Shown here: piece after piece, positions 7,501 to 23,304 of the stretch
Position numbering within the stretch: the first letter of the stretch is position 1
How the letters are laid out: the number at the start of each line of letters is the position of its first letter
Assembly (NCBI GenBank): GCA_046349875.1
Contig: JAXMBN010000022.1
Location: forward strand, 34,274-98,273
From: Pirellulales bacterium
Lineage (GTDB): Bacteria > Planctomycetota > Planctomycetia > Pirellulales > Pirellulaceae
Direction of reading: 5' to 3'
DNA: 64,000 nucleotides
Made by a program: the position numbers and the translations under genes
Notes under the pieces: generated by a model
What the model was told of the DNA's origin: nothing
Databases searched by the model: none
What the model saw: the letters and a program-made list of their open reading frames with translations, nothing else

Positions 7501-7623
7501 AATCGGCTCTTGTCCTTGAATCGGCCGCATTCCAACTGCCACCCCAAACACCACAAGAATGGCTAAACACCAACACTTCGTTGGAGAGCTTTGAGGATCA
7601 AAATGTGAATTTCGTATTCTCAT
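4501..7623 (-). CDS. Hybrid sensor histidine kinase / response regulator: signal anchor, ~480-aa periplasmic domain, TM, coiled coil, PAS, HisKA, HATPase and C-terminal REC.
   Basis: HisKA region AGHLAGGIAHDLNNTL. HATPase GTGLGLAVVHGIV. REC ILLVDDEPSV...ITDYSMPQMTG...KPF. The ORF is open to 7878, but MRIRNSHF...CWCLAILVVFGVAVG (start 7621-7623) looks like the signal-anchor start. Confidence 0.8.
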   Translation of the reverse strand: MRIRNSHFDPQSSPTKCWCLAILVVFGVAVGMRPIQGQEPIRTTFEAKYLSAEEAAKQLPVVLHGVITCVPEGWKGFFLEDASGGIFCEALNSEAEASFWPMEVGEEVELHGVSAAGHRNSFVMVSKIASRSKGVLPNPKLRTIQNIIDDRVDADFVRVRGHIVGLTNIAGQMEYGLLSEGVEALVFHSSFRIDPKVYEPSEVEVCGIVIPQEGNARPVKIIVPNPESFKMLATHLDILDATPVSTVEESLLKSSIKNPVVRIAGDIFCSDADETWLVEKGFGIDWKLNNTILPEGTKRVEVLGVLKREGDRQWLQYGTVLSTSSAAAGRTIARGKPVANTTEYRNQMVTLNATYWDVSAFHSEVILSFYAGDSKLTCRLVDDVATRTLPKLQRGAEYRVSGLLTPVSMDNVDTQVLLIRSLADIDWVAGPPWPIRFTLYIVSMLSAGLALGLATTIYCWKQANTAKSRLEIARNELHRANESLEARVVDRTLELDTTNRRLVEEAKARQLVEREQKETLASLEDAQSLGQMGSFIWQADTGCSSWSKQCFVIHGLDPSQRPPTVEEYCALVAEEDRTAFQEYLEQATRSSDREDFQYRIVLPNQEVRWIRCLIRSHHVDGVLSSMDGIVQNVTEQVKAEEQLRYSVKMEVAGHLAGGIAHDLNNTLAIVNLNCYLLGAELRKLPISQQVTEHVSAIESASEKSALLTRQLLTFSRKQIIRPVVLNINSSVQSFGPLLRQLIPNRIHIHFDLAENLANVRLDQGQLEQLLMNLVLNARDAITDEGRIGVRTSNVVIASEEDGVAWIVKPKTGSYVSLWVTDNGNGIAPECLPKIFEPFYTSKGPEKGTGLGLAVVHGIVRQNHGGLAVTSVPNQGTTFQLLMPIVQNKDDGAAVDPLDLGLQPVANQFRSTPERKESILLVDDEPSVGKHTEHVLKHLGYSVTTVTAAAEGLQQLLESPNSFQLLITDYSMPQMTGSELANKVRAVVPKLPVILMSGYLNEEAFQSMTAGENPIFVQKPFTIPDLAASILKALKQSEVLR

Positions 7624-7966
7624 TCGGATATTCCAGAACCTAATCCTGATAGCGCCACGAACTCCAATGCTCGGCGGGTACTTAGTTTGAGGATTCCCTA
7701 TTTGGATCTCAACATGCCCTCCCACTTTTTTGGGTAACTTCTCGACCTTTCCTTTTCCCTTCGCGTCGACTTTCTCCCCTACAACACATACCGAAATTTC
7801 GCAGTCTTGCCTGCGTAATCTGGATATTGGTGATCCGATGCCGCGGAGCGAACTACATAGCGAGTTCATGCTATGCATTCCTTAGAGATTCATCGAAACC
7901 CCAAGAACTAAAAAACGAGCGACAGTTTCAACTATGGCAAGATAGAACCGCTAGCGATTCGTTTGG

Positions 7967-9829
7967 TCAGTCTATGCTTGACTCTTCGACTCCCCATTGG
8001 CTTTTCGAAAGGGATCGATTCGTGGCACGAAAATATGCGTCACAAGCCAAAAATGCAGAAACTGCATCGCGCGAACTACCTTCTGCGGAATCGCTTTTGT
8101 AGATATCCGGCGATGAATCTTGGCGAACGGCGTGAACCAAATCTTCAAGTAGTTGAGAAGCGGTTGGCAACATAAGCCTACTGAATAGCAGGCGATCGCG
8201 TCGATGCGACTTACTTGCTAGGTCGGGAACCGAATCCCGACCACCTAATACCAAACCAATCAGACGGCGATCTAGAGGAGCCGTATACTTGGCGTTCGAG
8301 TTCACCAAGTGGCCGTTGCTTTCCATGTCTATTTCTTCCGACCATCGCTCGATGCCACGGATGTAATGCCGTTCCAAGCGATCGAGACCAAAACTGCAAA
8401 CCTCTTGCCAGGTGTCGGGCAATTCCAGTAAGGGCCTATTATGGTCGTCACCGGTCGGCAATGGTGCGATCCCATGGACTGCCATAAGGTCCGCACTCAA
8501 TGGTTCATCCCATTTTACTCGGACTAAACATCGTAATCGAAGCCGAGGACATCTCGCGAGCAATTGCAGGTTATGCCTGAACTCCAGTTCGGGCGCGTCG
8601 ATAGCGATCCCCAGCTTCCAATGTTGCGTTACATCATCTACCTGAACCACAACCTTCGCATCGAGAGCTCCAACTACCGTCGCATCGAATGCGATCAAAT
8701 CCCAACCCGCCGGACGATGATCTTCAGGAATGTCTAGCCATGCAAAGACTGCCCGGACTTGCTGCGCGACCGAATCGCTGAATCTACCAAAACGAAACGG
8801 TTGCGTTGACTCTTTTTTCGCCAGCGCCCAGCGTGTGGTTTTCCCCTTGCCCAATCTTCCATCACTCGATGCCGTTAACTCTTGCACTGTATAGGTACTG
8901 CGGCAGAGAGATTTTGCTTCGACGGTTACTCCACCTAATTCTATTCCCCCGCGATAGGCTTGATGAACCAAACTCATGTCACCGGTTCGCAATTCGTTCA
9001 CCGTATAAAGGTCACCTTGCGCCGTATCCTGCATGAGCACACTAACGCCTGCGAATCCGCTTCGCGTCCATATGGGCTCGGCCATGATCCCATTCAATTT
9101 TCGGACATCGATTTCTTCGAATGAACGGCGAGCCTGACCGATAATCCATCGAGGAACGTTTGCATGATTTGCAATCCAATGGCAAGCCAGCAACGCTGAA
9201 GCCACATCCTCTTTCAACAACGGAGAACTAGCTTGGTCGGATTGCTGCCGGAATCGCTGGACACCTTCGGCTATTCGCAAGACCGTATGACTCAAGGCGT
9301 ACAACTCCGAAACGCGGCATGTGTGTCCCGCTCGAAGCATCGTGGATTGGACCAAAGTTCCTGCATTTCGAGCACCGACTTGCAACAATGTTGCCAGCGA
9401 TTCGCGAACCTTGCTTGCCGCGCTTCGCATCGATTCGGTCACCTCAACCATCGGGTTCGGTCTCGACGAATTCGCCTCCGATGTGAAGGCCTCTTTCGTC
9501 GCAATCAAGTCCTCCGATTCAGAAAGAACTTGAACTTCATCCGTATTCAAGGAGAGGCAGCTACAGCAAGCAAGAATGTGAAAGCACTTAGGGGCCATCA
9601 AGCAGGTGCAAGAAACTTGATGGATCTTTTCGAGAGTGCCGTTTGCACTCTCCAAACGAACCGTCTCCTCATGGGCTTGAACAGTCCAGATAAGTTCGGT
9701 TTGTCTCCAAATCCAAGTTTCCGCTATCCCAGGACTGCCATCCAAGCGTTTACGGACACGCCCGGGAACTTGTTCAACAAGTTCGGCAAGAAGTAGCGGG
9801 GCAATCTTGGGGCGTTTGGTGTCAGACAA
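7967..9829 (-). CDS. SWIM zinc-finger domain protein (YehQ-like), 620 aa, intact.
   Basis: CxCx5CxH signature in QVSCTCLMAPKCFHILAC. Size and context match the SWIM component of the yehLMPQ / SWIM-AAA-DUF5682-VWA cluster. Confidence 0.65.
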   Translation of the reverse strand: MSDTKRPKIAPLLLAELVEQVPGRVRKRLDGSPGIAETWIWRQTELIWTVQAHEETVRLESANGTLEKIHQVSCTCLMAPKCFHILACCSCLSLNTDEVQVLSESEDLIATKEAFTSEANSSRPNPMVEVTESMRSAASKVRESLATLLQVGARNAGTLVQSTMLRAGHTCRVSELYALSHTVLRIAEGVQRFRQQSDQASSPLLKEDVASALLACHWIANHANVPRWIIGQARRSFEEIDVRKLNGIMAEPIWTRSGFAGVSVLMQDTAQGDLYTVNELRTGDMSLVHQAYRGGIELGGVTVEAKSLCRSTYTVQELTASSDGRLGKGKTTRWALAKKESTQPFRFGRFSDSVAQQVRAVFAWLDIPEDHRPAGWDLIAFDATVVGALDAKVVVQVDDVTQHWKLGIAIDAPELEFRHNLQLLARCPRLRLRCLVRVKWDEPLSADLMAVHGIAPLPTGDDHNRPLLELPDTWQEVCSFGLDRLERHYIRGIERWSEEIDMESNGHLVNSNAKYTAPLDRRLIGLVLGGRDSVPDLASKSHRRDRLLFSRLMLPTASQLLEDLVHAVRQDSSPDIYKSDSAEGSSRDAVSAFLACDAYFRATNRSLSKSQWGVEESSID

Positions 9830-10065
9830 GAATCACAATCCTTTGGCAAACACGGTCGTTCACTTCCACACATTCAGGGCGAACATCACCAGGATAGTTA
9901 TATCGAAAACCCAAGCCAACTCGATATCTACATTGCCGATTCTTATCGCGGCTCTTATCACTTTTGAATAACGTCCTATATTCCCCTTTCGTGCTATCCA
10001 TCCGTTATGATGATGGATCGTAAAAGCAATCGGTGAATCTTCTCTCCCTCGTCTTCGAATTCATC

Positions 10066-10986
10066 ATGGCAAAAGCGAAAGCTAAAACTAGTTCCTCCGC
10101 CGAATCAACCACGGCGTGGATCGATGGCCCTCAATCGTATCAGCTTGGTATTCAACAAGGAAAAGTTGTTTGCAAAAACCCCAAAGGCAAGGAGCTTGCT
10201 TCGTTGCCGGCTGCTATCAAGGACGATCCTGTCACGGATCAACTCCAGGCACTTGTGACATGGTTGGAAGATCATCGCATGGAATGTCTCCATACGGTCG
10301 AGCGGTGGATGTTGCGATCGCTGATCATACCACGTCAAACATTGGTGGAAGTTTGGCCGGATCCCGATTGGCGAGCTTCGCTGGAGAACATGGTGATTGC
10401 TCCATCGGGTGCAGATGGAAATGTGGAACGCGATCACTATGGATTGCTCAAAGATGCCGATGCAAACAAAGGCTTAGGAATTATCGATCTCGACGGCGAA
10501 TCGAAGTGGCTTCAATCACCATGCGTTGCCTTTCTTCATCCCATTTTGATTGGCGAATTGGAGGAACTACGAGATCTTGCGAATGACTTAGGAATCGTCC
10601 AACCAGTCGAGCAACTCTACCGTCCCGTCTTTCGTCCCATGCCGACCCAAATCGAACTCACTTCCATTCGCGACTATGAAGATGGCGAATTCGATCAGCT
10701 CAATTTTGCGCTGGGTCATTGCAAGAGACTTGGATATCCCGTGCGGGGCGGCTATGCCATTTGCAAAGTATGGGAGGGAGTTGCTCCCCTTGAAGCTCGC
10801 TACTATGTGGGAAGCGAATCACCTGAAAGCCCGACGATTACTGGCGATCTTATCTTTGTCGACCAAAAGCAACAGTCCGTTCCGATCCGGAACGTCGGCC
10901 CCGTAACCTTTAGTGAAGGTGTTCGTATGGCATCTTCCATCTACGCCAAACGCAAAGTCGAAAAGGCGGAAGGAGAACCATCATGA
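10066..10986 (+). CDS. Hypothetical protein (about 306 aa), first gene of a plus-strand block divergent from the SWIM gene.
   Basis: The ORF is open from a GTG at 10033. The ATG at 10066 (MAKAKAKTSSS) is the likely start. Protein-like composition, no recognised motif. Its stop overlaps the next start (ATGA at 10983). Confidence 0.5.
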   Translation: MAKAKAKTSSSAESTTAWIDGPQSYQLGIQQGKVVCKNPKGKELASLPAAIKDDPVTDQLQALVTWLEDHRMECLHTVERWMLRSLIIPRQTLVEVWPDPDWRASLENMVIAPSGADGNVERDHYGLLKDADANKGLGIIDLDGESKWLQSPCVAFLHPILIGELEELRDLANDLGIVQPVEQLYRPVFRPMPTQIELTSIRDYEDGEFDQLNFALGHCKRLGYPVRGGYAICKVWEGVAPLEARYYVGSESPESPTITGDLIFVDQKQQSVPIRNVGPVTFSEGVRMASSIYAKRKVEKAEGEPS

Positions 10987-11375
10987 GTCGAGAATGGGCC
11001 CAATCGCAACTCGAAGCCGGCGGAATGGTCAATGTTCAAACCTTGATCGATGACAAATCGACCGAGACGATCATTGCACGATCCTACAGCGCTCCAGTGC
11101 TCGGCGACCGCGTGATCATTCGATTGACTTCGGAGCGACTAATGCCAGCCGAAGATCTATCGATGGAGTTTTTAGGATTGGAGGGCAAAGGGATCAGTAG
11201 GCCAATTGCCAAACAACATCGAACGGCACTGGAGTTTGGCCATTGGGCACTCATCCACCAACCCAAGTACGCCAAGTATGCACTTGATCTTGTGAAACGC
11301 ATGAAGGGTGCAGCGACGAAAAGCGGTTTCCAAAGCTGGTCATGCTTGGGATCTCTATGTAGCCATGGCCGATGA
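10983..11375 (+). CDS. Hypothetical protein (130 aa). It may be the N-terminal part of the following gene, joined through a frameshift.
   Basis: The ATGA stop/start overlap with the upstream gene suggests translational coupling. The last ~15 aa (QSWSCLGSLCSHGR) look like out-of-frame junk, while the overlapping frame of ORF 11308 looks protein-like. Confidence 0.4.
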   Translation: MSREWAQSQLEAGGMVNVQTLIDDKSTETIIARSYSAPVLGDRVIIRLTSERLMPAEDLSMEFLGLEGKGISRPIAKQHRTALEFGHWALIHQPKYAKYALDLVKRMKGAATKSGFQSWSCLGSLCSHGR

Positions 11376-12897
11376 GCTCAATCAGTCGGTCAGACACTTT
11401 CTTCCGGCTTTTTGGGAGCAAGCGGCACGAGCCTATAAAGAGATTGGCAACACGACCTATGCGGGTCGTGCTCTATCCAAAGCTCTGGAAGCGGAACGGG
11501 TACATTCTTTGGAAGTGGATCGCGAACACAGACGCGATGCTATTCTCGAATTCACTCTGAGTGGTTGCTTATCTGGTAAAGCTCTGACGGAATACGCCAA
11601 AGATCTCGAAAAACAGTTTCCTCCCTTAGAGGCTTACGAAACTTATAAAGATCTGATCATTCGTCGAACGATGGGAGGAATGGCGCCGACCGTGACGACA
11701 GCAACTGACCTCACTCGCATGATCAAGGCAGCCAAGCTCGAAGTCAATGCAGAGATCGAAGCGGTCCTTGAATCGATCATTACTTCTCCTGCCATGGTAA
11801 GAGCTCCACTGCAATTTTGGCGTTCCGTGAAGAAGCAGGTTGCCAACCTCGTCCAGCGAAAACCTTCCTTTGCGGTATGGTTGCTCTGTCATACGAATGC
11901 GGCCTCGTCCTACCGTGCTGACAGCCCCGTATGGGAATGGATCGATTTGCTCGAAGAATGGAATGTCCTTCCATACCTTTCGATGCCCGCCTCGCAATTT
12001 CCATCGGGTGTCGAGATACCTGGCGGAAGATCGGGATGGTTCTCGAGGGTGGCTTCGGTCGAAACATCTCCCAACAAACGGATTTTTGACCTCTTAGAGC
12101 AGATGGCGGATGTGATTCGAGATGAAAAGCAGCCGATTCAACTTCATACTGGCCACTACGCTCGGATGGATGTCGACCTTGTCGACCGACTCTTGGCTCT
12201 GAACATTGCCATTGCCGAACCGCCTAAGAACTATGAGCTCAATTTTGATGGATGGTTTCGTGAAGAAGTCGATCATCCTCATCGCAATTCGCAGCTCATC
12301 AACGTATGTTCGACGGAACCCTATCGCACGAAGTTATTGGAACAGTTTCCGACGCTGGTCAAATTTCAAGGCGATCGAACCAAGCAGCCATGGGGAAGGA
12401 CACTCGCACCGCGTCGAGCCTTTGAAGAAGCCGCCGTTGGTCATGATCGCGTGAAACAGTTTTGGTGGGAATTTCTCGACAAACAACTAACAAGCCTTGA
12501 AAAAGGTGGTCTTGCCGATTTTGAAATAGCTCAAGAACATCTCGATGGTTGTTGTCGTGCGAAGACCGCCGAGCAATTTCCTGCGTTGGTTGACCGATTG
12601 AAAAAAATGGACATCGCAGCGTGTCTTCATCGAACGTTGGTAGCAGGGATTCTGGATGAGTATGGTTGGGACGAACTCGATCGCGTAACGGACGATCATC
12701 CAATGCCGCAAGTTCAACGGTATGGGGACCGCAAGATCTTTTTGGCGTTCCCACATCTCTGCTGGCACGAAAAAGACACGCTTTATTGGGTTTCGCCGAC
12801 AGCCTCTTCGCGTTCCGAGCTTCTCATGAAGTCGGGCCAGACTCTTCAATTTGTCGTCCGCGTTGGCTCTCAATTTGCCATTTCTTTACCACGATAG
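11308..12897 (+). CDS. Hypothetical protein (529 aa).
   Basis: Long clean ORF. An alternative ATG lies at 11365 (MADELNQ). Overlaps the 10983 ORF by 68 nt in another frame. No recognised domain. Confidence 0.5.
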   Translation: MQRRKAVSKAGHAWDLYVAMADELNQSVRHFLPAFWEQAARAYKEIGNTTYAGRALSKALEAERVHSLEVDREHRRDAILEFTLSGCLSGKALTEYAKDLEKQFPPLEAYETYKDLIIRRTMGGMAPTVTTATDLTRMIKAAKLEVNAEIEAVLESIITSPAMVRAPLQFWRSVKKQVANLVQRKPSFAVWLLCHTNAASSYRADSPVWEWIDLLEEWNVLPYLSMPASQFPSGVEIPGGRSGWFSRVASVETSPNKRIFDLLEQMADVIRDEKQPIQLHTGHYARMDVDLVDRLLALNIAIAEPPKNYELNFDGWFREEVDHPHRNSQLINVCSTEPYRTKLLEQFPTLVKFQGDRTKQPWGRTLAPRRAFEEAAVGHDRVKQFWWEFLDKQLTSLEKGGLADFEIAQEHLDGCCRAKTAEQFPALVDRLKKMDIAACLHRTLVAGILDEYGWDELDRVTDDHPMPQVQRYGDRKIFLAFPHLCWHEKDTLYWVSPTASSRSELLMKSGQTLQFVVRVGSQFAISLPR

Positions 12898-14923
12898 CAC
12901 CGATGGTTGGAAGTCCTATCTCAAATGGTCATCGGATCCCAACACTTCCACGTACAACCGGGTTGGTATCTTTTCCGATCGCTGGCACTCAACGGTCGAA
13001 GTGGGAAGTGATGGAATCTTTTCAGGCGAACGTACTTTTCGCGAAGGCGATACGGTTGTTCCTCAAACTCAGCCTCACTGGTACCACGATGGTCAACGAT
13101 TTTGGCTGCTTCATGGAGGGCAGCATCGGAATTATCGAGATGCAGGAGAGCGAACGTACGTTACCGAGGTCGATCCGAATTCGGGAAAGACCATTCGAGA
13201 AAGCGTGCCTCCTTTCTTTGAAGAATCGCTGCCACCTGGTTCGCGAATGGAATTTCCCTTTTCCTATTTGAGAACGAAACCCAATCAACCAGGAAATTCA
13301 CCACTGGGAGAGAAGGATGGACTGATCGGGCTTCGCTGTTTTCATCGGCGGGATGGGGCCGTTGAATCCCAAGGGATCGATGGAAGAACGTGGTTATTTT
13401 CCCAGGAAGAACAACCATCTCAATATCCATTAGCCGCGCTCGCCATCATCAATAAGCCAGGCTCGAACGCTTATTGGATCGCGGCCTCAAACAACGTACT
13501 TATTGATTCGGAATCCCGGATCGGTATTGGCTTTTTTGCCGAGCGTTCCAAGTACTTTGCAGGATGGCCAAGCGAATTGCCGATGCCCTATTTCTTCCAT
13601 TTGATGCGAGTACGATGCGAGAAGACCTCTCAAGCACTGCGAACTCTTTCACGCAATGATTCGGACAAACTCTGCAAAGCAGGCGAGACCGAACGGGAAG
13701 CACGGCGTAAAAAACCAGATCCCAACATTCCTGATCCGCAACGCGAAGAAACAACTCGAGTCGCAACCTCATTGTTTCCCCAAGCTCCTCCGCGACTCAT
13801 CCGCGGCCTGACAAGTATCGTGAAGATTGCCGCAGATGAGAAAGCTGCAATCCAGAATCTGCTCAAGCGACTCGAGCCACGCGAAACCAGTTCTTCGATT
13901 CCGATCTATAAAGACGAGCTTGCCAAACCCGGCTTCAACGAGCTGGTTATGGATCCGCCCGAACGACTCTCAACCTATTATTACAACGAAGAAACCCTGA
14001 GCGAACACATCCAACTGGTTGCGCAGTATTTTTCAGGGAAGGATCCAGAAGCATTCGTCAAGTGTCAACGCTATTGGTTTGTGCTGCTCGAGAATTTGCC
14101 AGGCGTCGCTTGGAAGACGTTTTGGAAACAGATCGTTCGCGACGATCGTCCGAGTGATCTCAAAGCTCTCAAGGACCAGCCTTGGGCCCATGCATTGGGA
14201 CTCCTTGCTCATTCTGGGTTGCTCGATCTACCTGGAAATCTGTGCCTGTTCCGCTGCAGCGACGAAGCATCGGCCAAGTTACCGCAAGATTTTCGTCAAA
14301 AACTGGACGAGTATCACAACGTCTTTTTTGCCGAAGGAAAGAGTCGCTACATCGCTTATCGATTCTATTCTCATATTGGTGAGAGAATTTACCTTTTGGG
14401 ACACAATCCCAAAGGGGAGTGCAAAGTTCCCAAGCCCTTCGTCGTCGATTCGACGATCCCTATCGATCTCGTATGGAAGCGAAGCCATCTTCTCGCGTTC
14501 ATCCACGCGTTATTAAACTGGACTCTCTTCCATTGCCTTCGCGCGAACAGCTGGACGCTGCCGCTCATCGATTGGGGCTACACCCCATCAGCGTCGGGAT
14601 GTTATGGATGGGGAAAATGTCGAACCAATCCCTACGGGCAGAGAAACTCTCCAAAGAAGTGCGCGGAGAACATTATGAGATGGAAGGTCAAAGACATACA
14701 GATTGCCGTTGCTGAATTGAAGGCACTCACGGTACCAAGTAGTCTTTCCACTCACTGCATTAAGGATCCAGGCTACCTTCTTCGCAAAGTAGGCCTAGTT
14801 TTGAATCCATGGTTCAATGTCTTGAAGAAGGCACGCCGAGCACTCGCCTTTTCCTCCCGAACTCAGCCAGAATTGCAGCGAGCCTTTCCCAGGTTATGGA
14901 CTGCCAGCCAAGGAATTCCATGA
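12851..14923 (+). CDS. Hypothetical protein (690 aa).
   Basis: Long ORF overlapping the previous ORF by 47 nt in a different frame (possible frameshift or true overlap). Trp/Tyr-rich soluble protein, no recognised domain. Confidence 0.5.
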   Translation: MSSALALNLPFLYHDSTDGWKSYLKWSSDPNTSTYNRVGIFSDRWHSTVEVGSDGIFSGERTFREGDTVVPQTQPHWYHDGQRFWLLHGGQHRNYRDAGERTYVTEVDPNSGKTIRESVPPFFEESLPPGSRMEFPFSYLRTKPNQPGNSPLGEKDGLIGLRCFHRRDGAVESQGIDGRTWLFSQEEQPSQYPLAALAIINKPGSNAYWIAASNNVLIDSESRIGIGFFAERSKYFAGWPSELPMPYFFHLMRVRCEKTSQALRTLSRNDSDKLCKAGETEREARRKKPDPNIPDPQREETTRVATSLFPQAPPRLIRGLTSIVKIAADEKAAIQNLLKRLEPRETSSSIPIYKDELAKPGFNELVMDPPERLSTYYYNEETLSEHIQLVAQYFSGKDPEAFVKCQRYWFVLLENLPGVAWKTFWKQIVRDDRPSDLKALKDQPWAHALGLLAHSGLLDLPGNLCLFRCSDEASAKLPQDFRQKLDEYHNVFFAEGKSRYIAYRFYSHIGERIYLLGHNPKGECKVPKPFVVDSTIPIDLVWKRSHLLAFIHALLNWTLFHCLRANSWTLPLIDWGYTPSASGCYGWGKCRTNPYGQRNSPKKCAENIMRWKVKDIQIAVAELKALTVPSSLSTHCIKDPGYLLRKVGLVLNPWFNVLKKARRALAFSSRTQPELQRAFPRLWTASQGIP

Positions 14924-16024
14924 ACGATCGTAGCGCCCCATGAAGCCGGCTTCACGAAAGCGAGAAAAATTGAATTTAAGATTCCAACTAAAGCCAATTC
15001 TGCTAATACTCTTCGGAAGTTGGAAATCACACCTAAGCACGATTTGCTTCATGCGTTCGATAAAGTGGCCGACCTTCTTGTGCATTGATCAATTACCACT
15101 TGCCGGTAGGACATTCCGTTCGCAAAAAGCTCCCCGATGCATTGGGGCGATTCGAGCTTTTGTCGACAACTCCCGAAACACTCCTCCCAGTGGGACACAG
15201 CTATCTATCGTACGATGCTCAAAAGCCAATGTCGATGCGATCATCATGGCGACGGCTTCAACGATGGGTAAATATGAAGATAGTAGCGGTATCTATCGCT
15301 GCGATTCGGAACAGTTTCTTGTTGCAACCGTTCCTCCTCAGGTCCAATGCTTCTTCCGGACCTCGAAGTTGCGGTCGGTCAAAGACCTCCAACGTTGCAA
15401 GGTTCACTTCAGCCTTTAATGGATACTCCATCCTATTTGAGCTTGAGCTGATGAATGTCGACTTTGCCGTTCAAATGCGATCGGAAGCGATGACGCGTCT
15501 CGTTGAATGCAGTGAAACCTCAGGTGCAGAAGCCATTGGGAACAAAACCCCTTGCTTTCCGTTCCAAACTTGGTTGAAGAATGCGCACAGGCCTTTACAG
15601 TTGGATACGATGTCAAAAGCTGGCAACATCTTCAGATTCTCGCCTTACCCGATCCCACGATTGCCAATGGGCAGTGGAATGAATGGAACACGAACCAAAT
15701 CAATCGTATGAGTGCACCCTTATTGAACGTGCGGCTGGTTGAAGCGAAGCGAAACGGGCGGGAAGATCTATTCTTACCAGGTGGTTGGGAACCATTGAAA
15801 GCTCCAACCTGCCCATTCGAAATGTCCTGGAAGCTACCGCTGTTCGGATGAAAATGCGATCGACTTCGTGGAGGAATGGCCGAATCCCTGATTGTATTGG
15901 GTTCCGGCCACGTCGAAGTTCGAGAACGCATGGAACCGATCGTCTGGAAAACCAGCTTATGCGGAAGCCCCATCAAAGCGAGCAAGTCTAAAAAAGTAAC
16001 TATGGCCAAAAAATCATCAAAACG

Positions 16025-16892
16025 ATGACCTCCTCTTTGGCGTCGGACCATCCAGCCAGCCAACCCATGCAGTTACCACCGGCAGATGTTCGGTATCAAA
16101 AGGAGCTTGTTGCCCTTCGCGAAATCGATACCAACGACAAGCCTGATGGATGGCTTCTCTCGCCTCAAGCAGTTGTTGATTTCATTTGTGGCACCTGCGG
16201 GATAAAAGATTGGTGCCAATCGGTCCGAGAAGCGATGGTAATTACCGAGAAATTCGTTGGTTCGCGAGACTTGATTCAACGGTGTGTGGTGACGCTAGCC
16301 GGAGAACGCGGACTGCTGCTAGTCGGCGAACCTGGAACAGCAAAGTCGATGCTTGAGCTGCTGGCTGTTGCCATCAGTGGAACGAGTGGGCTGGCCATTC
16401 AAGGAACCGCTGGAACGACGGAGGATCAAGTTGATTACGGTTGATTATGCAGTACTTCTTGATCGGACGGCCCTACACCGGAGGCATTGTGGTCCCTTCG
16501 CCGTTTATCAAGCCATGCGATCAGGATGCATTGTTCGCTTTGAAGAAGTCACGCGTTGCTTGCCAGAAGTGCAAGATGGCGATTTCGATCTTGACGAAAG
16601 ACGTATGATGGTACCGGAACTCGAAGGGAAGCATCGAGCCTTTTCGCCATTCCTGGATTCAATGTCCCGCCACGGCAAACTTACGGGACCGAGGATTTTC
16701 CGAGATGTCAGCTGCTTTGAAAAAGGCGTTTCAGTGCGAAACCATTGCACCGATCCAAGATATGAAACGCGAGGGTCAAACTCGTATGCAACGTGCGACA
16801 ACCTTACTGACGAGGTGAGCACGATCCCCATCGATCGATACGGCATTGGTGAATATCTTAGTGGAGATCTTTCGCGACTTAAGGAATGGTAG
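16025..16892 (+). pseudogene. MoxR-like AAA+ ATPase (AAA_5 / YehL-like), interrupted by a +1 frameshift at about 16440.
   Basis: Walker A LLLVGEPGTAKS sits in ORF 16025..16444 (frame 2). The Walker B / sensor region IVRFEEVTRCLPEVQ...VPELEG continues in ORF 16353..16892 (frame 0). The junction coincides with a 10-bp tandem near-duplicate gttgattacg/gttgattatg (16430-16449). Confidence 0.7.
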
Positions 16893-16932
16893 GACGAATG
16901 AAGGATGGCAAGTGCAACAGCCTAGCACGGTG

Positions 16933-19900
16933 ATGAGTACTGCCGAAGCCGTGGCCGTAACGGCCGCCATTCTTCGCGAAGGAGCGTTTTCCCATCTGGA
17001 TTTGATCCGCTGTCGCGGCTGCCGGTCACTTGCTGAATTGGTCATGAAGGACGATGCCAAAGATCGCGAACGTTATTGCATTACTGGGATGATTTGTTCA
17101 CGACGCCGAAGCGAATCAGGTCATCCTGTGGAAACGGCTCAGTGAACTCGGAGCCAGGTCGAGGATGAGCGATAGTCGTGGATTTTCAAAACAGATCGAT
17201 CTGCTCGCTCAATGTCGACTGCCTTACTTGATCGGCGTGCGCGTCACCATTCTGCGGCGATCGCAAGAGCATTGCCAACGTTGCTTTCCTCGATGCAACC
17301 CGAGAGCCTCTTGCTGGAGATGCCGAGGATTTCCTTGACTGGATTCCACATCTGGCCGACGAGGATACGGTGGCGCTGTCGCGATGTTGCGGATCCGCAT
17401 AACCCAATCTGGCCTTCTATCCATTGGCCGATTTTTTCTCCCGAATTAACAGCCATTCGCTGGGCCCATCGCCATCAAATTCCAGTCCGCTTCCTTTCGA
17501 TCTTTCATGAGCGCTTGGGATTCTCGACTCAAAAGTCGATGCTCTTCAAAACGCGTTATCGACGTGGCAACAACAGCAAAAAGGCGATCGAACCATTGAG
17601 TGATGCTTCGTCTCCTAATGCATTGATGGCACTGCTTGCACGCACGCACTCGGAAGATACGGGACAGTTGTGGGAGCGATTGATCGAAACACCCGGAATC
17701 ATGGAAGATCCGAATCGATTCGGCGAGCTGCCTTACTCTTTGGGTGGGCGATTCGCCAAAGCACTGCGACCGTTTCGATTCAGAGATCGTTGCGGGAAGC
17801 ATGCGTCAGGCAATTCGCGAAGCCATGCATCCGTGCGTTGCCATCATCGGGTCATTCCATGCGAGCAGTCTGTTGCCAAGCGTTGTTGAATCATCGTGCG
17901 ACCATGACCGCTTCCTTCTCGACCTCATTGCCGAAGATATCGAAGGTTGAGTGTCTCCCTCAGATTGGACTCAGTTTTGAGCAATTGGATGAGCGTAATG
18001 GATACCCTGCAGGAATTCGCGATCCCGATAACGATCGAATGATCAGCCAAACCGCGGCGGAAATCGATTTGGCTGCGACGCAAATCATCGTCGATGTTGC
18101 AGAACGGTATGTAGGGACATGTCGCAGGCACGCCTGATGCCTGCAGGTCTATTGCATGATGCGCGATCTCGCTAACTGCCGGACTCCCGATTGCGGGACG
18201 TGGCGAGTTGATTGAATCGATCCGAGGGCTTGGTACAAGGTACGCTTTATGGCCACTTGCACGAGAAGTCGCGAAGTCTGTTGAAGCCATCTTGATCGGT
18301 AACCGTAAAGAAGGGTTACGGCGAAGGCACCGCGCTGTGGACTCTCTTATCGATAGAGGACCTATTCAAGTTTCTCAAACTTCCCATAGATGAAGTCAAA
18401 AATCAAACTCGATGTCCTGCGCGATGGACGAGATCACTTGCTGAGCAGTTGTCTTGCGTCAACTATGTGACCAACATCCCTTATGTCGACACATCGACCG
18501 ATCGGCAAGGCAACCGCGAAAACCTTATCGAAAATTGGGCTGGATTTCGTCCAGGGCACAAGTGCTTCCATTGAAGCTGTATCGCGATTTGGGGTCGCGT
18601 TGCCCAAGTCGTCGAAGGAATCCTTCAATTGCAGTCGCCTTCTCAGGATTCGGATGAATGGACCCCGACGTTCTTGTTGGATCGTTGCGATCGCATCGGA
18701 GTGTGGCCTTCATGGGCTAACTCAAAAATGGATCGAGCTATTCACTGGTCCCTTTCTACGGGCCGCGGGACTACACGAGCTTGTTGAAGCGGCTACGCGT
18801 ATTGGACGCATTGCTGCAGGCCATGTCCCAGGACTTCCACCAAGCTGGACAAGAAGAGTACCCTCGATTCTTACCTATTTTCCGTGTACGAATTGGGTCG
18901 ATCGCCTTGTGATTCTGCTTCGCACTCAGCAGTCGCCTTTCTGGATTGGCGGGATCACGGGAACCATCGGATGTCGTTGGCCTTTGTGAATTGGGGCATT
19001 GGTTACGAGGCAGTGTGCGCCAGCACATCGTTGTCAGCAAATGAAGAATCGATGCGAGTTTTGTTCAGGCCTCCTCAACTCATTCACTGGTGCCCAAATC
19101 AAACGCAACGCCGAGGTAGCGATCGAATGCGAGGCGCGCAGGCGCTTTCATTGTATATACATGCTTGAGGAACAAACACGCGAGGATCTTGCGAGCTTGC
19201 TGCATGGCTGGATCGATGATGCCTCAGACCAAAGTCGCGATCCCAACTACGCTATTCCTTGCAGGCATGGTGCAAGTTCTATTGCGATGATGCAATCCGT
19301 GCCCGAGTGGCTTCAAGGTCTCGGCACTTGCCTGCAATCAATGGATGATCAATCGTTCTTGAAGGCGACTTCCTGCTCACGAGGCGCGTTCACGAATGTT
19401 CTCCCGCTGATCGCCAGCCGCATTCTCGACGCTCGAACAGATCGACGATCCAGGATTGGAGATGTCTTTAGGTAACTATTCCGATGAGCATGATCAAGAC
19501 GCGACCGTGATGTTGACGTGCGACAAGCCGACTTGAGCAAGTTGCAGTGGCTGCCATTTCCCGGAATGCTTCTTCCTTGCGATAGTGCACTTCCTTCGAG
19601 CCCCACTGAAGCCTCCTCTTCAACCTTCTCGATAAACAGTCTAAGGCCATCTGAAATTTCAATTGCCGATCGCTGGCGTATGATCATGGGAACGCCACCG
19701 CAACAGGATTCGCGAGGCCACCATGCAGCACGGAGTCTCGATCACTTATATGGCGAAGGAAAGGGAGAGGGTGCGAGATCAGGCTTGTCGAACGAAGGGA
19801 CGAGAGGAGGGAAGGGGGGCGGAAGAGAACAACCAGTGCCAACCGCGGCCGAATGGGCCGATGACGAAGCACTGTTCGGCTCGGATGTGCCAAGAAGTCC

Positions 19901-20100
19901 TTGGTGCTTCGGCGACCTCTGGCAATCTCAACGCCGGTCAACGCGTTGGACCCGGACACGATGATGCCGAGTATCGATCCTCCTCCAACAAGTCTTGTCG
20001 TTGGCTGGAGGATCATCCGAACGAAGAACGCAACGCCTTCGCGCAATCGCCAAGAAGGATAACAGAGCAACTCGCACAAGCTCGCCGTGCGATTGAGGCC
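16933..20100 (+). pseudogene. About 3 kb of protein-like fragments in all three plus frames. Probable remains of a large DUF5682-like (YehM-like, TraB/GumN-like) gene.
   Basis: Fragments in alternating frames that read like real protein: MSTAEAVAVTAAILREGAFSHL; AIEPLSDASSPNALMALLARTHSEDTGQLWERLIETPGIMEDPNRFGELPYSLGG; FDSEIVAGSMRQAIREAMHPCVAIIGSFHASSL; LSFEQLDERNGYPAGIRDPDNDRMISQTAAEIDLAATQIIVDVAERYVG. No ORF exceeds 225 aa. Minus-strand ORFs here are low-complexity. Confidence 0.4.
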
Positions 20101-20108
20101 GCACGTGA

Positions 20109-20793
20109 ATGGCTTATCCACGGCGAGACCAACGAGGCGTCGAAATCGTCGCCTCAATCTGCACTGGACGATTCGAGGCAAATCTTGCCAATGCGATTCG
20201 GCGAGACGATGGTCGGCCAACCATCGTGGCAAAGAATCTTATCTTTAACTCTTCGTCAAAGCGCGAGATGGATTGGCATCTAACGTTTGTGGTCGACGTT
20301 TCGGGATCGATGACCTCGTCCGTTGTCTATAGTGCCCTTTGCGCGCTTGATCTTTGCGCAGCTTCTCTTTGTCCATTCGCTTTCTTGCTTTCAGCACACA
20401 AGTTGTTGACCTGAGTGAGCGTAACTGATCCGCTGACTCTGTTGTTGGAGGTTCGGATTGGGCCGGAACTCATATCGGGCTGGGTTACGACACGCTCGAG
20501 CAGGTATACGTCTTACCGCCCCGATCGTTGGTCGTGGTTGTTTCGGACTTTGAAGAAGGTGTCTCTCTGGTGAACTCATAGCGGCTAGAGCATTGGTTGA
20601 GGCTGGAGTCAAATGTCTGGGATTGGCTGCTCTGGACGATAAAGGGGTGGCTCGATTTCATCAGGGATTCGCCCACCTGGTCGCGTCGGCGGGCATGCCC
20701 GTGGCAGCCGTGAGCCCCGAGCGACTAGCGCAATGGGTTGAGGGACCAGATCCGTGGTGTTTAGCCCCGATGGGTCGGGCAACGAACAAGTAG
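20109..20793 (+). pseudogene. von Willebrand factor A (VWA) domain protein (YehP-like), split across three frames.
   Basis: MIDAS DxSGSM in LTFVVDVSGSMTSS (frame 0, stops at 20414). Second MIDAS block LVVVVSDFEEG in frame 2 (20522-20581). C-terminal block LEAGVKCLGLAALDDKGVARF...VAAVSPERLAQWVEG in frame 1 (20593-20793). A possible upstream extension lies in frame 1 from about 19950. Confidence 0.65.
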
Positions 20794-21059: not shown

Positions 21060-21842
21060 TCAAATTGCACCATCGCTCGTTCCACCTCGCGGAAGCGACA
21101 CGGTCGGAATACCCTCATACTCACCCTTCGGATTGGTCCAGATTTGAGTCCACGCTTTTCCTTGAGAGTAGAATCGTTTGAGCCAAAAAGCCGCTAAATC
21201 CGATTCATCCACGTTGGGTGCGGTTAGAACGGCCGCCCGAGCGTACATCATTTCTTTGGAAACGATCTCTGGTTCTTCCCTCCATCGTTGAATCATTTGC
21301 GCATCAACACGCAATCGGTCGCGAGTTGGAAATAAGAATCGATCCACAAAGATCTCATGCTGAAAAGACATGGATCGCAATTGCGGAAACTCGCAATAGA
21401 TAGTCATTTCGGAAAGCGTGCTCGCCTCGTGTTCATTATCGCGAATCTTATTCTTGAAGGTGATCGGATCGGTACACACATGAGCCGAATCCGGTCCATA
21501 GGGCATGGTCGCGGCGTGGCAGATTTCATGGAGATAATAGAGATCCTGCACAAGTGCATTATCATAGGTTCGCAGTTGAATACCGCCCCACCATGGTGAA
21601 AAATGGGGTGCCTCAACGAACTCCTTGTGAACCTTGCCTTGTGGGTCCATTACTTCCACAAAAACCTCGGACGGTTCGTAGAAGAATCGTGGCCTACGTG
21701 CAAATTTCTGAATCAATTTTGCAACAAGCCCTCCCTCATCATACGACTGCCGCAACATCTCCGTCTTGAGAAGTTGATGGCGTATGAACTCCTGACACTC
21801 TTTGGCGTGTGGTAACGCAATTACCTTCTGCATGAAACACAA
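21060..21842 (-). CDS. Hypothetical protein with an HExxH-like motif (possible metallopeptidase-like domain).
   Basis: 260-aa ORF with the motif YYLHEICHAATMPY. It sits immediately after the VWA remnant on the opposite strand. Confidence 0.45.
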   Translation of the reverse strand: MCFMQKVIALPHAKECQEFIRHQLLKTEMLRQSYDEGGLVAKLIQKFARRPRFFYEPSEVFVEVMDPQGKVHKEFVEAPHFSPWWGGIQLRTYDNALVQDLYYLHEICHAATMPYGPDSAHVCTDPITFKNKIRDNEHEASTLSEMTIYCEFPQLRSMSFQHEIFVDRFLFPTRDRLRVDAQMIQRWREEPEIVSKEMMYARAAVLTAPNVDESDLAAFWLKRFYSQGKAWTQIWTNPKGEYEGIPTVSLPRGGTSDGAI

Positions 21843-22989: not shown

Positions 22990-23304
22990 CCGTTGCGAAA
23001 GCCTACGAACGATTACCAGTTCAGATCATTCCATGGGTCGAATCGGCAAAAAAGTCTTCGAAGGAGAGTAGTTGCCTCTCTTGTCTTTCACTTGATTCGC
23101 CTTGATGACAAGCGATCCGAAGTCAGCATAGAATTCGCTATTGGCTGTATAGTGGACAACCACCAAACGATCGCCAATTTGAACTCGATGAAAATGGCAA
23201 ATTGCAACATTGATCTTGATGCCAACATCCATCCAGTGAGTTCAGCAGTGGATATACTAATCCTATTTTCAAAATCTAGTTTATACGTTGAAAAGGCGTT
23301 TTCT

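What the first reader, a model, noticed from the sequence alone, without database searches (positions are those of the whole stretch)
10066..14923. Block of three to four uncharacterised genes (about 1600 aa in total) between the SWIM gene and the AAA ATPase
Four consecutive same-strand ORFs (306, 130, 529 and 690 aa) are divergently transcribed from the SWIM gene, with an ATGA stop/start overlap and two inter-frame overlaps. None carries a motif I recognise. By position they are candidates for the fifth component of the cluster (a DUF4132/YehI-like large protein, possibly split by shifts at about 11340 and about 12870). Otherwise they are novel lineage-specific partners of the SWIM/AAA/VWA module.
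Basis: inference. Interest (0 to 1): 0.65.

Follow-up and report, generated by a model that had tools for sequence, protein, structure and literature searches.

The report
Two genes, broken by indels
The four "unknown" reading frames are really two genes, a small DUF4132 gene and one giant 1,671-residue scaffold protein cut up by single-base insertions and deletions that are probably sequence errors. Together they open a five-gene ATPase operon that is conserved in more than 550 bacterial species and has never been studied.

Summary
The four ORFs exist exactly as described, but they are two genes.

- **ORF1 (10066-10986)** is a complete stand-alone DUF4132 protein (Pfam E=2e-24).
- **ORF2+ORF3+ORF4 plus the fragments up to about 15999** form one gene, "B", of 1,671 aa after repair. 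It is interrupted by 1-nt insertions at about 11312 and about 12878, and by about 12 more indels from 14511 onward.
- **B belongs to a large family with no Pfam or NCBIfam model.** I found 657 clusters at 50% identity and at least 557 species, in Planctomycetota, Actinomycetota, Myxococcota, Bradymonadales, Proteobacteria and others.
- **The operon is almost always the same:** small DUF4132, B, YehL-type MoxR AAA+ (P-loop GEPGTAKS), DUF5682::VWA fusion, SWIM-motif protein. All genes are intact in short-read assemblies and in isolates.
- **Structure.** AlphaFold (pLDDT 88) gives a TPR-like α-solenoid followed by a β-propeller. No specific structural homologue was found.
- **The indels.** The window carries 62 frameshifts but only 5 stops. 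Sixty of the frameshifts lie in one 6.2-kb patch (14513-20740) that starts inside a gene. There is almost no excess amino-acid divergence (the VWA region is 83% identical to its closest relative despite 14 frameshifts). This favours an assembly artefact (about 70%) over real decay (about 25%).

Function is unknown. My best guess is that B is the scaffold or client-adaptor of a MoxR-VWA remodelling machine. This is a variant of the E. coli yehI/yehLMPQ cluster.

The parts
7967..9829 (-). SWIM-motif protein (620 aa), intact, divergent from the block. It is the positional counterpart of E. coli YehQ.
   Evidence: The ORF is. The motif CTCLMAPKCFH lies at aa 74-84, and CxCxnCxH is present in 33 of 33 homologues from related operons. 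There is no Pfam SWIM hit and no HMMER link to YehQ. No frameshifts were seen.
9830..10065 (.). Divergent intergenic region (236 nt) between the SWIM-like gene and the DUF4132 gene; presumed promoter region.
   Evidence: One weak sigma-70-like match at 9955-9982, no more than shuffled sequence gives. This assignment is inference only.
10066..10986 (+). Gene A: stand-alone DUF4132 protein (306 aa; an alternative GTG start lies at 10033). Intact.
   Evidence: Pfam PF13569, E=2.2e-24, profile positions 1-179 of 179. It is 78-80% identical to the intact L008 and L009 homologues with 0 frameshifts and 0 stops.
10983..10986 (+). ATGA overlap: the stop of the DUF4132 gene overlaps the start of gene B (translational coupling).
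   Evidence: Sequence. In L008, L009, L022 and the Streptomyces atratus plasmid the DUF4132 gene likewise ends at or overlaps the B start. The NTGA count of 65 of 73 loci is weak evidence, because it is largely expected by chance for TGA stops.
10983..15999 (+). Gene B: one gene of about 1,671 aa (ORF2 + ORF3 + ORF4 + fragments 14940-15999). Predicted layout: small N-terminal α/β domain, TPR-like α-solenoid, β-propeller, helical region, then a conserved C-terminal domain of about 150 aa.
   Evidence: Frame-repaired translation is collinear end to end with the B genes of L001-L005, repaired the same way to 1,664-1,689 aa. It is also collinear with intact single ORFs of 1,679-1,690 aa in L008, L009, L010 and L017 and with 23 family representatives. 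AF2 pLDDT 88.1, pTM 0.79 for residues 1-1176. The terminal TAA is at about 15997-15999.
11311..11316 (+). Frameshift 1 (ORF2 to ORF3): one extra nucleotide.
   Evidence: All five long-read relatives and all four intact references place a +1 shift here. The nucleotide alignment shows window gcagcgacg against gcggc-gcg.
12877..12886 (+). Frameshift 2 (ORF3 to ORF4): one extra nucleotide.
   Evidence: The nucleotide alignment shows window gccattt against gcc-ttt.
14511..14925 (+). Further indels inside 'ORF4': about 14511 (-1) and about 14619 (+1) together put 36 residues out of frame. More indels follow at about 14795-14846, and a pair at about 14894/14925 makes the apparent stop at 14921-14923 out of frame.
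   Evidence: The out-of-frame stretch is the W/C-rich 'NWTLFHCLRANSWTLPLIDWGYTPSASGCYGWGKC' of the ORF4 translation. The correct reading, KLDSLPLPSREQLDAAAHRLGLHPISVGMLWMGKM, matches the homologues.
14513..20740 (+). Indel-dense patch: 60 of the 62 consensus frameshifts (about 1 per 104 nt) and all 5 in-frame stops.
   Evidence: Frameshift-aware alignment to four intact references, keeping events supported by at least 3 of them. There are 0 events in 7967-11310 and 0 in 12887-14512.
16025..17149 (+). YehL-type MoxR AAA+ ATPase (AAA_5), broken by about 12-13 frameshifts and 2 stops. The P-loop is GEPGTAKS.
   Evidence: Pfam AAA_5 on the fragments. Events. The P-loop is identical in E. coli YehL and of the same G.PGTAKS form in 66 of 66 relatives.
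17165..20761 (+). DUF5682::VWA_CoxE fusion gene (about 1,250 aa when intact), broken by about 40 frameshifts.
   Evidence: Pfam DUF5682 on the fragments. The intact L008 orthologue carries DUF5682 (E=6e-126) plus VWA_CoxE (E=8e-46) in one ORF. Events.

Best explanation
Anatomy (shown). The block is two genes. Gene A (10066-10986) encodes a complete 306-aa DUF4132 protein. Its stop overlaps (ATGA) the start of gene B (10983 to about 15999). Gene B is a single protein of about 1,671 aa, and the MAG sequence splits it into ORF2, ORF3, ORF4 and smaller pieces through 1-nt insertions and deletions. A and B are the first two genes of a conserved five-gene operon: DUF4132, B, YehL-subfamily MoxR AAA+ ATPase, DUF5682::VWA(CoxE-type) fusion, SWIM-motif protein. 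In this Pirellula-like clade the SWIM gene has flipped to a divergent upstream position.

The breaks (inferred, about 70%). The indels are errors of the assembly rather than biology. They form a low-quality patch (14513-20740), with two stray errors at about 11312 and about 12878.

Mechanism (inferred, about 30-35%). B is a large non-enzymatic scaffold or sensor made of a TPR-like α-solenoid, a β-propeller and a conserved C-terminal module that may be a winged helix. It binds the small DUF4132 protein; the coupling and a rare fusion both suggest this. The pair is then presented to, or remodelled by, the MoxR hexamer through the MIDAS site of the VWA domain. This would follow other MoxR-VWA couples such as RavA-ViaA, CbbQ-CbbO, NorQ-NorD and CoxD-CoxE. 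The SWIM protein would be a further adaptor. What the machine acts on is unknown.
For: **One gene.**
- Homologous proteins span each ORF junction in a single frame. P0002 spans ORF2 to ORF3, and P0006 spans ORF3 to ORF4.
- The repaired B is collinear over residues 1-1670 with six loci, and with intact single ORFs in L008, L009, L010 and L017.
- The 150 best family representatives listed are mostly 1,550-1,750 aa.
- RefSeq annotates a 1,640-aa single CDS in the same context on a complete Streptomyces replicon.

**DUF4132.** Pfam match.

**Operon conservation.**

**AAA+ type.** The P-loop GEPGTAKS equals that of E. coli YehL, and 66 of 66 relatives carry G.PGTAKS. The YehL subfamily is defined in PMC3893208. 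The MIDAS motif DxSxS is present in 58 of 58 VWA domains.

**Artefact.**
- 62 frameshifts against 5 in-frame stops.
- All events are 1-2-nt indels, and gene lengths are preserved.
- The dense patch begins inside gene B at 14513, while the SWIM gene, the DUF4132 gene and B residues 636-1176 have none.
- Long ORFs elsewhere in the window are intact, up to 1,288 aa.
- After repair the VWA region is 83% identical to L002 despite 14 frameshifts and 0 stops. The clean DUF4132 segment is 82% identical.
- With L008 as reference, window divergence divided by L002 divergence is 2.1-2.7 in dense segments and 1.6-2.1 in clean ones. That excess amounts to about 2 residues per frameshift.
- The operon is intact in every short-read or isolate genome inspected.
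Against: - I could not see reads, coverage or the sequencing technology of this MAG, so 'artefact' rests on the pattern alone.
- Both stray indels outside the patch also fall in gene B.
- There are 5 in-frame stops and a modest excess of amino-acid divergence in the dense segments. Some real decay is therefore not excluded.
- The indels are not concentrated in long homopolymers, which is not the classic nanopore signature.
- Mechanism: no experiment exists on any member.
- B has no detectable relation to YehI or to any solved structure.
- The C-terminal winged-helix idea rests on the order of secondary-structure elements in a low-confidence model, sub-threshold single Pfam hits and a RefSeq name, 'DNA-binding protein'.
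Confidence: 0.7

Rival explanations
1. Genuine pseudogenisation. The operon is dead in this Pirellulales lineage, and the frameshifts are real mutations accumulating in genes that are no longer used.
For: Frameshifts are confined to this operon, while long ORFs elsewhere in the window are intact. There are five in-frame stops, for example at 16816, which every reference supports. Amino-acid divergence is slightly raised in the affected genes. Patchily distributed accessory systems are often lost. A related JGI contig has a PDDEXK_2 gene inserted in the operon.
Against: Decay should hit the whole unit. Yet the SWIM gene (1.9 kb), the DUF4132 gene and 1.6 kb of B have no events, while the adjacent 6.2 kb has 60, and the change occurs in mid-gene. 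With ordinary bacterial mutation spectra, 62 indels would come with hundreds of substitutions, many nonsense codons, larger deletions and a clear drop in identity (this expectation is from my own knowledge). Instead, VWA is 83% identical to L002 with 0 stops, gene lengths are preserved and all events are 1-2 nt.
Confidence: 0.24
2. Four (or three) separate small genes, as the ORF calls suggest. NCBI annotates ORF3 and ORF4 as the hypothetical proteins U0905_13990 and U0905_13995.
For: The ORFs are open, have possible start codons and were called as CDSs in the deposited record.
Against: Homologues read straight through both junctions. Intact orthologues are single ORFs of about 1,680 aa. Thirty-six residues of 'ORF4' are demonstrably out of frame.
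Confidence: 0.02
3. One YehI-like giant protein that includes the DUF4132 domain: all four ORFs fused, about 1,980 aa.
For: One 2,031-aa DUF4132-B fusion exists in a metagenome (P0065). In E. coli YehI, DUF4132 is part of a 1,210-aa protein.
Against: In this window ORF1 ends at an in-frame TGA with 0 frameshifts relative to intact orthologues. A separate DUF4132 gene of about 300 aa sits upstream of B in 69 of 74 loci and in RefSeq annotation. The apparent fusion P0010 is an out-of-frame read-through. B shows no similarity to YehI.
Confidence: 0.03
4. Programmed ribosomal frameshifting or transcriptional slippage joins the ORFs.
For: Both shifts in the first 3.9 kb have the same sign: the window carries one extra nucleotide at each.
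Against: The sites are not conserved, because close relatives are in frame there. There is no slippery heptamer. About 60 further shifts of mixed sign lie downstream.
Confidence: 0.01

Closest known systems
E. coli K-12 yehI-yehK-yehLMPQ cluster (YehI DUF4132; YehL MoxR AAA+, YehL subfamily; YehM DUF5682; YehP VWA; YehQ SWIM)
   Same: The same four Pfam families occur in the same order: DUF4132, AAA_5, DUF5682, VWA, then a SWIM-type protein. The AAA+ P-loop GEPGTAKS is identical. Both are uncharacterised.
   Different: Here DUF4132 is a 306-aa stand-alone protein, not the C-terminus of a 1,210-aa protein. A gene of about 1,670 aa (B) lies between it and the ATPase, and it has no counterpart or detectable similarity in E. 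coli. DUF5682 and VWA are fused into one protein of about 1,250 aa. The SWIM-like protein shares only the CxCxnCxH motif with YehQ.
MoxR-vWA ternary conflict systems of Kaur, Burroughs, Iyer & Aravind 2020 (eLife, PMC7159879), especially the β-propeller-containing class
   Same: Both have a MoxR AAA+ plus vWA couple and a large third component with TPR and β-propeller regions. The MoxR P-loop is the unusual GxxxTAKS variant those authors report for the FtsH and β-propeller classes. Both are enriched in Actinomycetota, Myxococcota and Planctomycetota.
   Different: That paper does not mention SWIM, DUF4132 or YehL. Its defining vWA with a C-terminal β-propeller is absent here, where vWA is the C-terminus of a DUF5682 fusion. 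Pfam bpMoxR scores below its cut-off (20-22 bits against 27). B is highly conserved along its whole length rather than having a hypervariable N-terminus. No effector domain is present, and there are no PADLOC hits.
Characterised MoxR-VWA chaperone pairs (RavA-ViaA, CbbQ-CbbO, NorQ-NorD, CoxD-CoxE)
   Same: An AAA_5 ATPase is encoded next to a VWA protein with an intact MIDAS motif, and the VWA domain is of the CoxE type. This is the basis for the proposed way of working.
   Different: Those pairs sit next to their client enzymes (NADH dehydrogenase/fumarate reductase, Rubisco, NO reductase, CO dehydrogenase; this is from my own knowledge and PMC3893208). Here no enzyme is linked. The constant partners are B, DUF4132, DUF5682 and the SWIM protein.

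Membership tests
DUF4132 (Pfam PF13569) / YehI-MolR-like proteins | Significant full-length match to the DUF4132 domain model | tested here: met
   ORF1: 86.8 bits (cut-off 27), E=2.2e-24, profile positions 1-179 of 179.
DUF4132 (Pfam PF13569) / YehI-MolR-like proteins | YehI-like architecture: about 1,200-aa protein with a long N-terminal region and a C-terminal DUF4132 | tested here: not met
   ORF1 is a 306-aa stand-alone protein. YehI has DUF4132 at residues 954-1138 of 1,210. B is not similar to the YehI N-terminal region.
YehL-type MoxR operon (yehLMPQ-like) | MoxR AAA+ of the YehL subfamily (AAA_5 domain, P-loop GEPGTAKS) | tested here: met
   AAA_5 on window fragments 16025-16892. GEPGTAKS in the window ORF, in YehL, and as G.PGTAKS in 66 of 66 relatives. 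After repair the gene is 76-77% identical to the closest relatives, L002, L008 and L009.
YehL-type MoxR operon (yehLMPQ-like) | Adjacent DUF5682 (YehM-like) and VWA (YehP-like) genes | tested here: met
   DUF5682 on window fragments. The repaired stretch 17165-20761 aligns with the intact L008 DUF5682::VWA_CoxE protein.
YehL-type MoxR operon (yehLMPQ-like) | SWIM zinc-finger protein (YehQ-like) in the cluster | tested here: inconclusive
   The CxCx5CxH motif is present (33 of 33 relatives also have CxCxnCxH), and the size is similar (620 aa against 614 aa). However, there is no Pfam SWIM hit and no sequence link to YehQ.
YehL-type MoxR operon (yehLMPQ-like) | Genes intact and expressible | tested here: not met
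   As deposited, B, AAA_5 and DUF5682::VWA carry 62 frameshifts and 5 stops. Whether this is real cannot be decided without reads.
'B' family (unnamed protein of about 1,650 aa; RefSeq label 'DNA-binding protein') | End-to-end collinear homology to family members | tested here: met
   Repaired B aligns over residues 1-1671 at 24-43% identity to 23 representatives. The closest species representatives, L008 and L009, reach 59% identity in their best aligned segment. The N-terminal profile finds 657 clusters.
'B' family (unnamed protein of about 1,650 aa; RefSeq label 'DNA-binding protein') | Position between a small DUF4132 gene and the AAA_5 gene | tested here: met
   The window layout matches 69 of 74 (upstream) and 61 of 71 (downstream) related loci.
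'B' family (unnamed protein of about 1,650 aa; RefSeq label 'DNA-binding protein') | DNA binding, as the RefSeq name implies | not testable with these tools
   There is no Pfam, NCBIfam or PDB hit for the whole protein or its C-terminal domain. The only hints are a helix-helix-helix-hairpin order in a low-confidence model and the RefSeq label.
β-propeller MoxR-vWA ternary system (Kaur et al. 2020; Pfam bpMoxR PF20030) | MoxR matches bpMoxR above threshold, and vWA carries a C-terminal β-propeller | tested here: not met
   bpMoxR scores 22.1 and 20.3 bits against a cut-off of 27, and only over the P-loop region. VWA_CoxE ends the fusion protein, with nothing after it.
Known or candidate anti-phage defence systems (PADLOC-DB v2) | Any component matches a PADLOC model | tested here: not met
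   No hits for DUF4132, SWIM-like, AAA_5, VWA, DUF5682 or repaired B.

The most novel reading that the evidence does not exclude
DUF4132 + B + YehL-type MoxR + DUF5682::VWA + SWIM could be a distinct, undescribed class of MoxR-vWA 'threshold' system. It would be related to Aravind's ternary conflict systems, sharing the GxxxTAKS P-loop and a third component with TPR and β-propeller regions. B would be the sensor or scaffold, and its conserved C-terminal module might bind nucleic acid. The system would then be a widespread immunity or stress-surveillance machine of bacteria with large genomes and complex lifestyles, and E. coli yehI/yehLMPQ would be its reduced cousin. A separate, less likely novel reading is that the indel-riddled state of the 6.2-kb patch is biologically real.
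Probability: 0.25. Interest if true: 0.7.

Novelty: new variant of a known kind. Interest (0 to 1): 0.45.

Why it matters
The E. coli yehLMPQ/yehI genes are among the long-standing "y-genes" with no function, and YehL is the only MoxR subfamily of E. coli without a known client.

This window points to a much more widespread form of that system, found in at least 557 species. These include cultivable Streptomyces, Micromonospora, Saccharothrix, Stieleria, Neorhodopirellula and the Planctomycetaceae isolate SH139. This form carries an extra, strongly conserved 1,670-aa α-solenoid/β-propeller protein that has no Pfam or NCBIfam model and no publication.

Defining this family and its fixed partners gives a concrete set of proteins to co-purify, model as a complex and delete.

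For the genome scan itself there is a practical lesson. Runs of overlapping inter-frame ORFs in a MAG can be a local assembly-quality patch, so such ORFs should be repaired before being called novel genes.

Tried and rejected
1. **Pfam, NCBIfam and PADLOC** on each ORF, on repaired B and on intact B homologues. Only DUF4132 (ORF1) matched. The NCBIfam hit of ORF3 to 'STM4012 radical SAM' (19.8 bits against a cut-off of 380) is noise.
2. **B HMM and hhalign against E. coli YehF, H, I, K, L, M, P and Q.** Nothing.
3. **PDB sequence-profile searches** with full B and with the C-terminal domain. Nothing significant.
5. **Using the first related loci (L001-L005) to ask whether relatives are also split.** They are, but so are their flanking genes, and their 'contig_N' names suggest long-read assemblies (the sequencing technology was not checked). 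They say nothing about biology. I replaced them with the short-read loci L008, L009, L010 and L017.
6. **Homopolymer explanation for the two junction shifts.** Rejected after nucleotide alignment.
7. **NTGA overlap statistic** for translational coupling. Largely expected by chance, so it is not used as evidence.
8. **Flank synteny** between the window and its closest loci. None.
9. **Exact look-up of the window's own protein P0001.** Not on record, so the assembly accession and technology could not be retrieved.
10. **Word-indexed search with the ORF4 part.** It found only itself.
11. **Literature** on DUF4132, DUF5682, yehLMPQ and SWIM+MoxR. Nothing functional.

Full report
**1. Observation**

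- ORF1: 10033/10066-10986.
- ORF2: 10983-11375.
- ORF3: 11308-12897.
- ORF4: 12851-14923.

They lie in frames 1, 3, 1 and 2. There is an ATGA overlap at 10983-10986, and the inter-frame overlaps are 68 and 47 nt. The block is divergent from a 620-aa - strand gene (7967-9829) with a CxCx5CxH motif. A codon-usage Viterbi path follows these frames. ORF1 does carry a known domain, and 14923 is not the true end.

**2. ORF1 is the DUF4132 component**

Pfam gives a full-length DUF4132 match (PF13569, 86.8 bits, E=2.2e-24). Intact orthologues align from the ATG at 10066 to the stop with no frameshift or stop, at 78-80% identity.

**3. ORF2, ORF3 and ORF4 are one gene**

- A word-indexed search with ORF3 found only 11 proteins. 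tblastn of these back onto the window showed single proteins crossing the ORF junctions. P0002 runs from frame 3 (10983-11324) into frame 1 (11317-12372). P0006 runs from frame 1 into frame 2 across 12790-12885.
- I wrote a protein-to-DNA aligner that allows frameshifts. It placed a +1 shift at about 11316 and another at about 12886 with every relative.
- Nucleotide alignment with L002, L008 and L009 shows one extra base at 11311-11313 and one at 12877-12879. It also shows a missing base at about 14511 and an extra base at about 14619.
- The last two events put 36 residues of 'ORF4' out of frame. That is the odd W/C-rich stretch in its translation.
- Further paired shifts (about 14795-14846 and about 14894/14925) make the 'stop' at 14921-14923 out of frame.
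- The reading frame continues through the small ORFs 14940-15851 to a TAA at about 15997-15999, 26 nt before the AAA+ start codon.
- The repaired protein ('B') is 1,671 aa. It is collinear end to end with the B genes of L001-L005, repaired the same way to 1,664-1,689 aa. It is also collinear with intact single ORFs of 1,679-1,690 aa in L008, L009, L010 and L017.

**4. B is not lineage-specific**

- An exhaustive HMMER search with an ORF3-centred profile found 657 clusters (50% identity) at E≤1e-3, and 402 at E≤1e-30. Most are 1,550-1,750 aa and match from their N-terminus.
They include a Gammaproteobacteria MAG (PID63462.1) and Kibdelosporangium WP_042183379.1.
- They have no Pfam or NCBIfam model.
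- A scan of GTDB species representatives found at least 557 genomes. The groups include Pirellulales, Planctomycetaceae, Gemmatales and Phycisphaera; many Actinomycetes (Dactylosporangium, Micromonospora, Actinosynnema, Saccharothrix, Streptomyces); Myxococcota; Bradymonadales; Proteobacteria; and a Selenomonadaceae MAG.

**5. Conserved context**

I searched the ORFs of 80 loci with phmmer, using window, L007 and E. coli Yeh queries.

| Neighbour of B | Loci with it / loci testable |
|---|---|
| Small DUF4132 gene immediately upstream | 69 / 74 |
| AAA_5 gene immediately downstream | 61 / 71 |
| DUF5682 next | 55 / 61 (54 as a single DUF5682::VWA ORF of about 1,200 aa) |
| SWIM-motif protein | 52 / 56 (usually at the 3' end) |

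- In the window's closest clade (L002, L008, L009, L010, L017) the SWIM gene is divergent upstream, exactly as in the window.
- The intact L008 proteins give Pfam AAA_5 (E=7.5e-37), DUF5682 (E=6e-126) and VWA_CoxE (E=8e-46).
- RefSeq annotates the same five genes on a complete Streptomyces atratus replicon. There the names are DUF4132 protein, 'DNA-binding protein' (1,640 aa), AAA family ATPase, DUF5682 family protein (1,255 aa) and hypothetical protein.
- One metagenomic protein (P0065, 2,031 aa) fuses DUF4132 to B. Another apparent fusion (P0010) is an out-of-frame read-through.

**6. Relation to known systems**

- The E. coli K-12 locus yehI (DUF4132, 1,210 aa), yehK, yehL, yehM (DUF5682), yehP (VWA), yehQ (SWIM) has the same families in the same order.
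- The AAA+ P-loop GEPGTAKS is identical in the window and YehL, and 66 of 66 related loci carry G.PGTAKS. YehL defines one of the seven MoxR subfamilies (PMC3893208).
- B has no similarity to any E. coli Yeh protein.
- The SWIM-like protein shares only its Cys/His motif with YehQ.
- Kaur et al. 2020 (PMC7159879) describe MoxR-vWA ternary conflict systems. They note a GxxxTAKS P-loop in the FtsH and β-propeller classes, and a third component with TPR and β-propeller regions.
- The present operon resembles this, but that paper does not cover it: it never mentions SWIM, YehL or DUF4132. The operon also fails that class's defining features. Its vWA has no C-terminal propeller, and bpMoxR scores below threshold.
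- There are no PADLOC hits, and I found no functional literature.

**7. What B looks like**

AF2 on repaired residues 1-1176 with 43 diverse homologues gave pLDDT 88.1 and pTM 0.79.

| Residues | Predicted element |
|---|---|
| 1-80 | Small α/β domain |
| 85-575 | α-helical solenoid |
| 585-860 | All-β domain |
| 868-1080 | Helical region |
| 1085-1160 | β-sheet domain |

- Foldseek against the PDB returns chains of human PI3KC3 complexes (E about 1e-4 but TM about 0.12-0.14), Bub3/Hsv2/prolyl-oligopeptidase propellers, and importins.
- The C-terminal third could only be modelled poorly (pLDDT 56).
- The most conserved stretch of the family lies there: LYLQLLALPDPT...WNGW...EAKRxRAGRxxFLPGGWExLKxPxLPxExWKLPLY. 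It has a helix-helix-helix-β-hairpin order. Together with RefSeq's 'DNA-binding protein' label, this hints at a winged helix. No search confirmed that.

**8. The frameshifts: real or artefact?**

Against four intact references, the window has 62 consensus frameshifts (36 of '+1' type, 26 of '+2' type) and 5 in-frame stops between 11313 and 20740.
- Two frameshifts are isolated, at about 11313 and about 12880.
- None lies in 12887-14512, none in the DUF4132 gene and none in the SWIM gene.
- Sixty lie in 14513-20740, about 1 per 104 nt. They shred the end of B, the AAA+ gene (12-13) and DUF5682::VWA (about 40).
- Long ORFs elsewhere in the window are intact, up to 1,288 aa.

Arguments for an assembly artefact:
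- (a) The dense patch begins in mid-gene and spares other genes of the same operon. That is a property of a DNA stretch, not of a dead functional unit.
- (b) All events are 1-2-nt indels, and gene lengths are preserved.
- (c) Frameshifts outnumber stops 12 to 1.
- (d) After repair there is almost no excess amino-acid divergence. VWA is 83% identical to L002 with 14 frameshifts and no stop, against 82% for the clean DUF4132 segment.
- (e) With L008 as reference, window divergence divided by L002 divergence is 2.1-2.7 in dense segments and 1.6-2.1 in clean ones. The excess is about two residues per frameshift, which alignment edges can explain.
- (f) Orthologous operons are intact in all short-read MAGs and isolates inspected.

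Arguments for real decay:
- The events are restricted to this operon.
- There are five stops.
- The indels are not homopolymer-bound.
- I cannot see reads.

I put artefact at about 70% and real pseudogenisation at about 25%.

**9. Mechanism (inference)**

MoxR AAA+ hexamers work with VWA partners whose MIDAS site grips a client peptide. The MIDAS motif DxSxS is intact in 58 of 58 relatives.

The invariant partners here are B, DUF4132, DUF5682 (fused to VWA) and a SWIM-motif protein. No enzyme gene is linked. The conserved abutment of the two genes, the ATGA overlap seen here and the rare fusion all suggest that DUF4132 and B form a complex.

I therefore propose that B·DUF4132 is the scaffold, sensor or client of a YehL-type MoxR-VWA remodelling machine. 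Whether its role is immunity-like (as in the Aravind ternary systems) or assembly of some cellular complex is open.

**10. Verdict**

The anomaly that drew attention, several overlapping unknown ORFs, is most likely a sequence-quality artefact. Underneath it is an ordinary member of a conserved operon. However, that operon includes a large, widespread, unannotated protein family and is an undescribed variant of the enigmatic yehI/yehLMPQ system. Interest is moderate (0.45). Novelty: new variant of a known kind.

Noticed in passing
window 14513-20740: A sharply bounded 6.2-kb patch with about 1 indel per 104 nt (60 frameshifts, 5 stops). The flanking sequence and the rest of the 64-kb window read cleanly. 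From 18398 onward the events are almost all of the '+1' type, while upstream the signs are mixed.
   Followed up: partly
window 16025-16444 (ORF with GEPGTAKS): The MoxR P-loop is the unusual GxxxTAKS variant. It is identical in E. coli YehL, and all 66 related operons carry G.PGTAKS. Kaur et al. 2020 report this variant for the FtsH- and β-propeller-type MoxR-vWA conflict systems.
   Followed up: partly
window 7967-9829 (-); L001 19542-21423; L005 19540-21174: The SWIM-motif gene changes place. It is divergent upstream in the window and its closest clade (L002, L008, L009, L010, L017), and the last gene on the same strand almost everywhere else. It has no Pfam SWIM hit and no detectable similarity to YehQ beyond CxCxnCxH.
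   Followed up: partly
P0065 (JGI metagenome, 2,031 aa); P0010 / L003 4772-6880: P0065 is an apparent natural DUF4132-B fusion. P0010 looks like a fusion but is an out-of-frame read-through of a frameshifted DUF4132 gene into B.
   Followed up: partly
JGI contig of sample 3300047160 (no DNA held): A PDDEXK_2 (transposase-like) gene on the opposite strand sits between the AAA_5 and DUF5682::VWA genes of an otherwise typical operon. B is called there as 475 + 1,196 aa.
   Followed up: no
L001-L005 (ENA ERZ250394xx-395xx and GCA_036704275.1): These related MAG contigs have frameshift-split genes in their flanks as well (for example Pkinase 108 + 150 aa and Zn_peptidase 74 + 112 aa). General assembly indel errors are the likely cause. 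Protein databases built from them contain many fragments of B.
   Followed up: partly
L088 (Streptomyces atratus NZ_CP108284.1) 8656-13578: RefSeq names the B orthologue 'DNA-binding protein' (WP_331739365.1), although no Pfam or NCBIfam model hits it. I could not find the basis of that name.
   Followed up: partly
window 4501-7878 (-): A 1,125-aa hybrid histidine kinase/response regulator (PAS, HisKA, HATPase_c, REC; CckA-like NCBIfam hits below cut-off) lies next to the SWIM-like gene. It is not conserved next to the operon in the closest relatives.
   Followed up: partly
window 1359-2342 (-): A type I GTP cyclohydrolase FolE2 gene (Pfam GCHY-1, E=2e-81). It is intact and unrelated to the finding.
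   Followed up: no
window 21060-21842 and 21852-22475 (-), 22936-24993 (+), 2563-3795 (+): ORFs of 207-685 aa flanking the operon have no Pfam match at E≤1e-3. The two - strand ORFs are in the same frame, separated by 9 nt.
   Followed up: no
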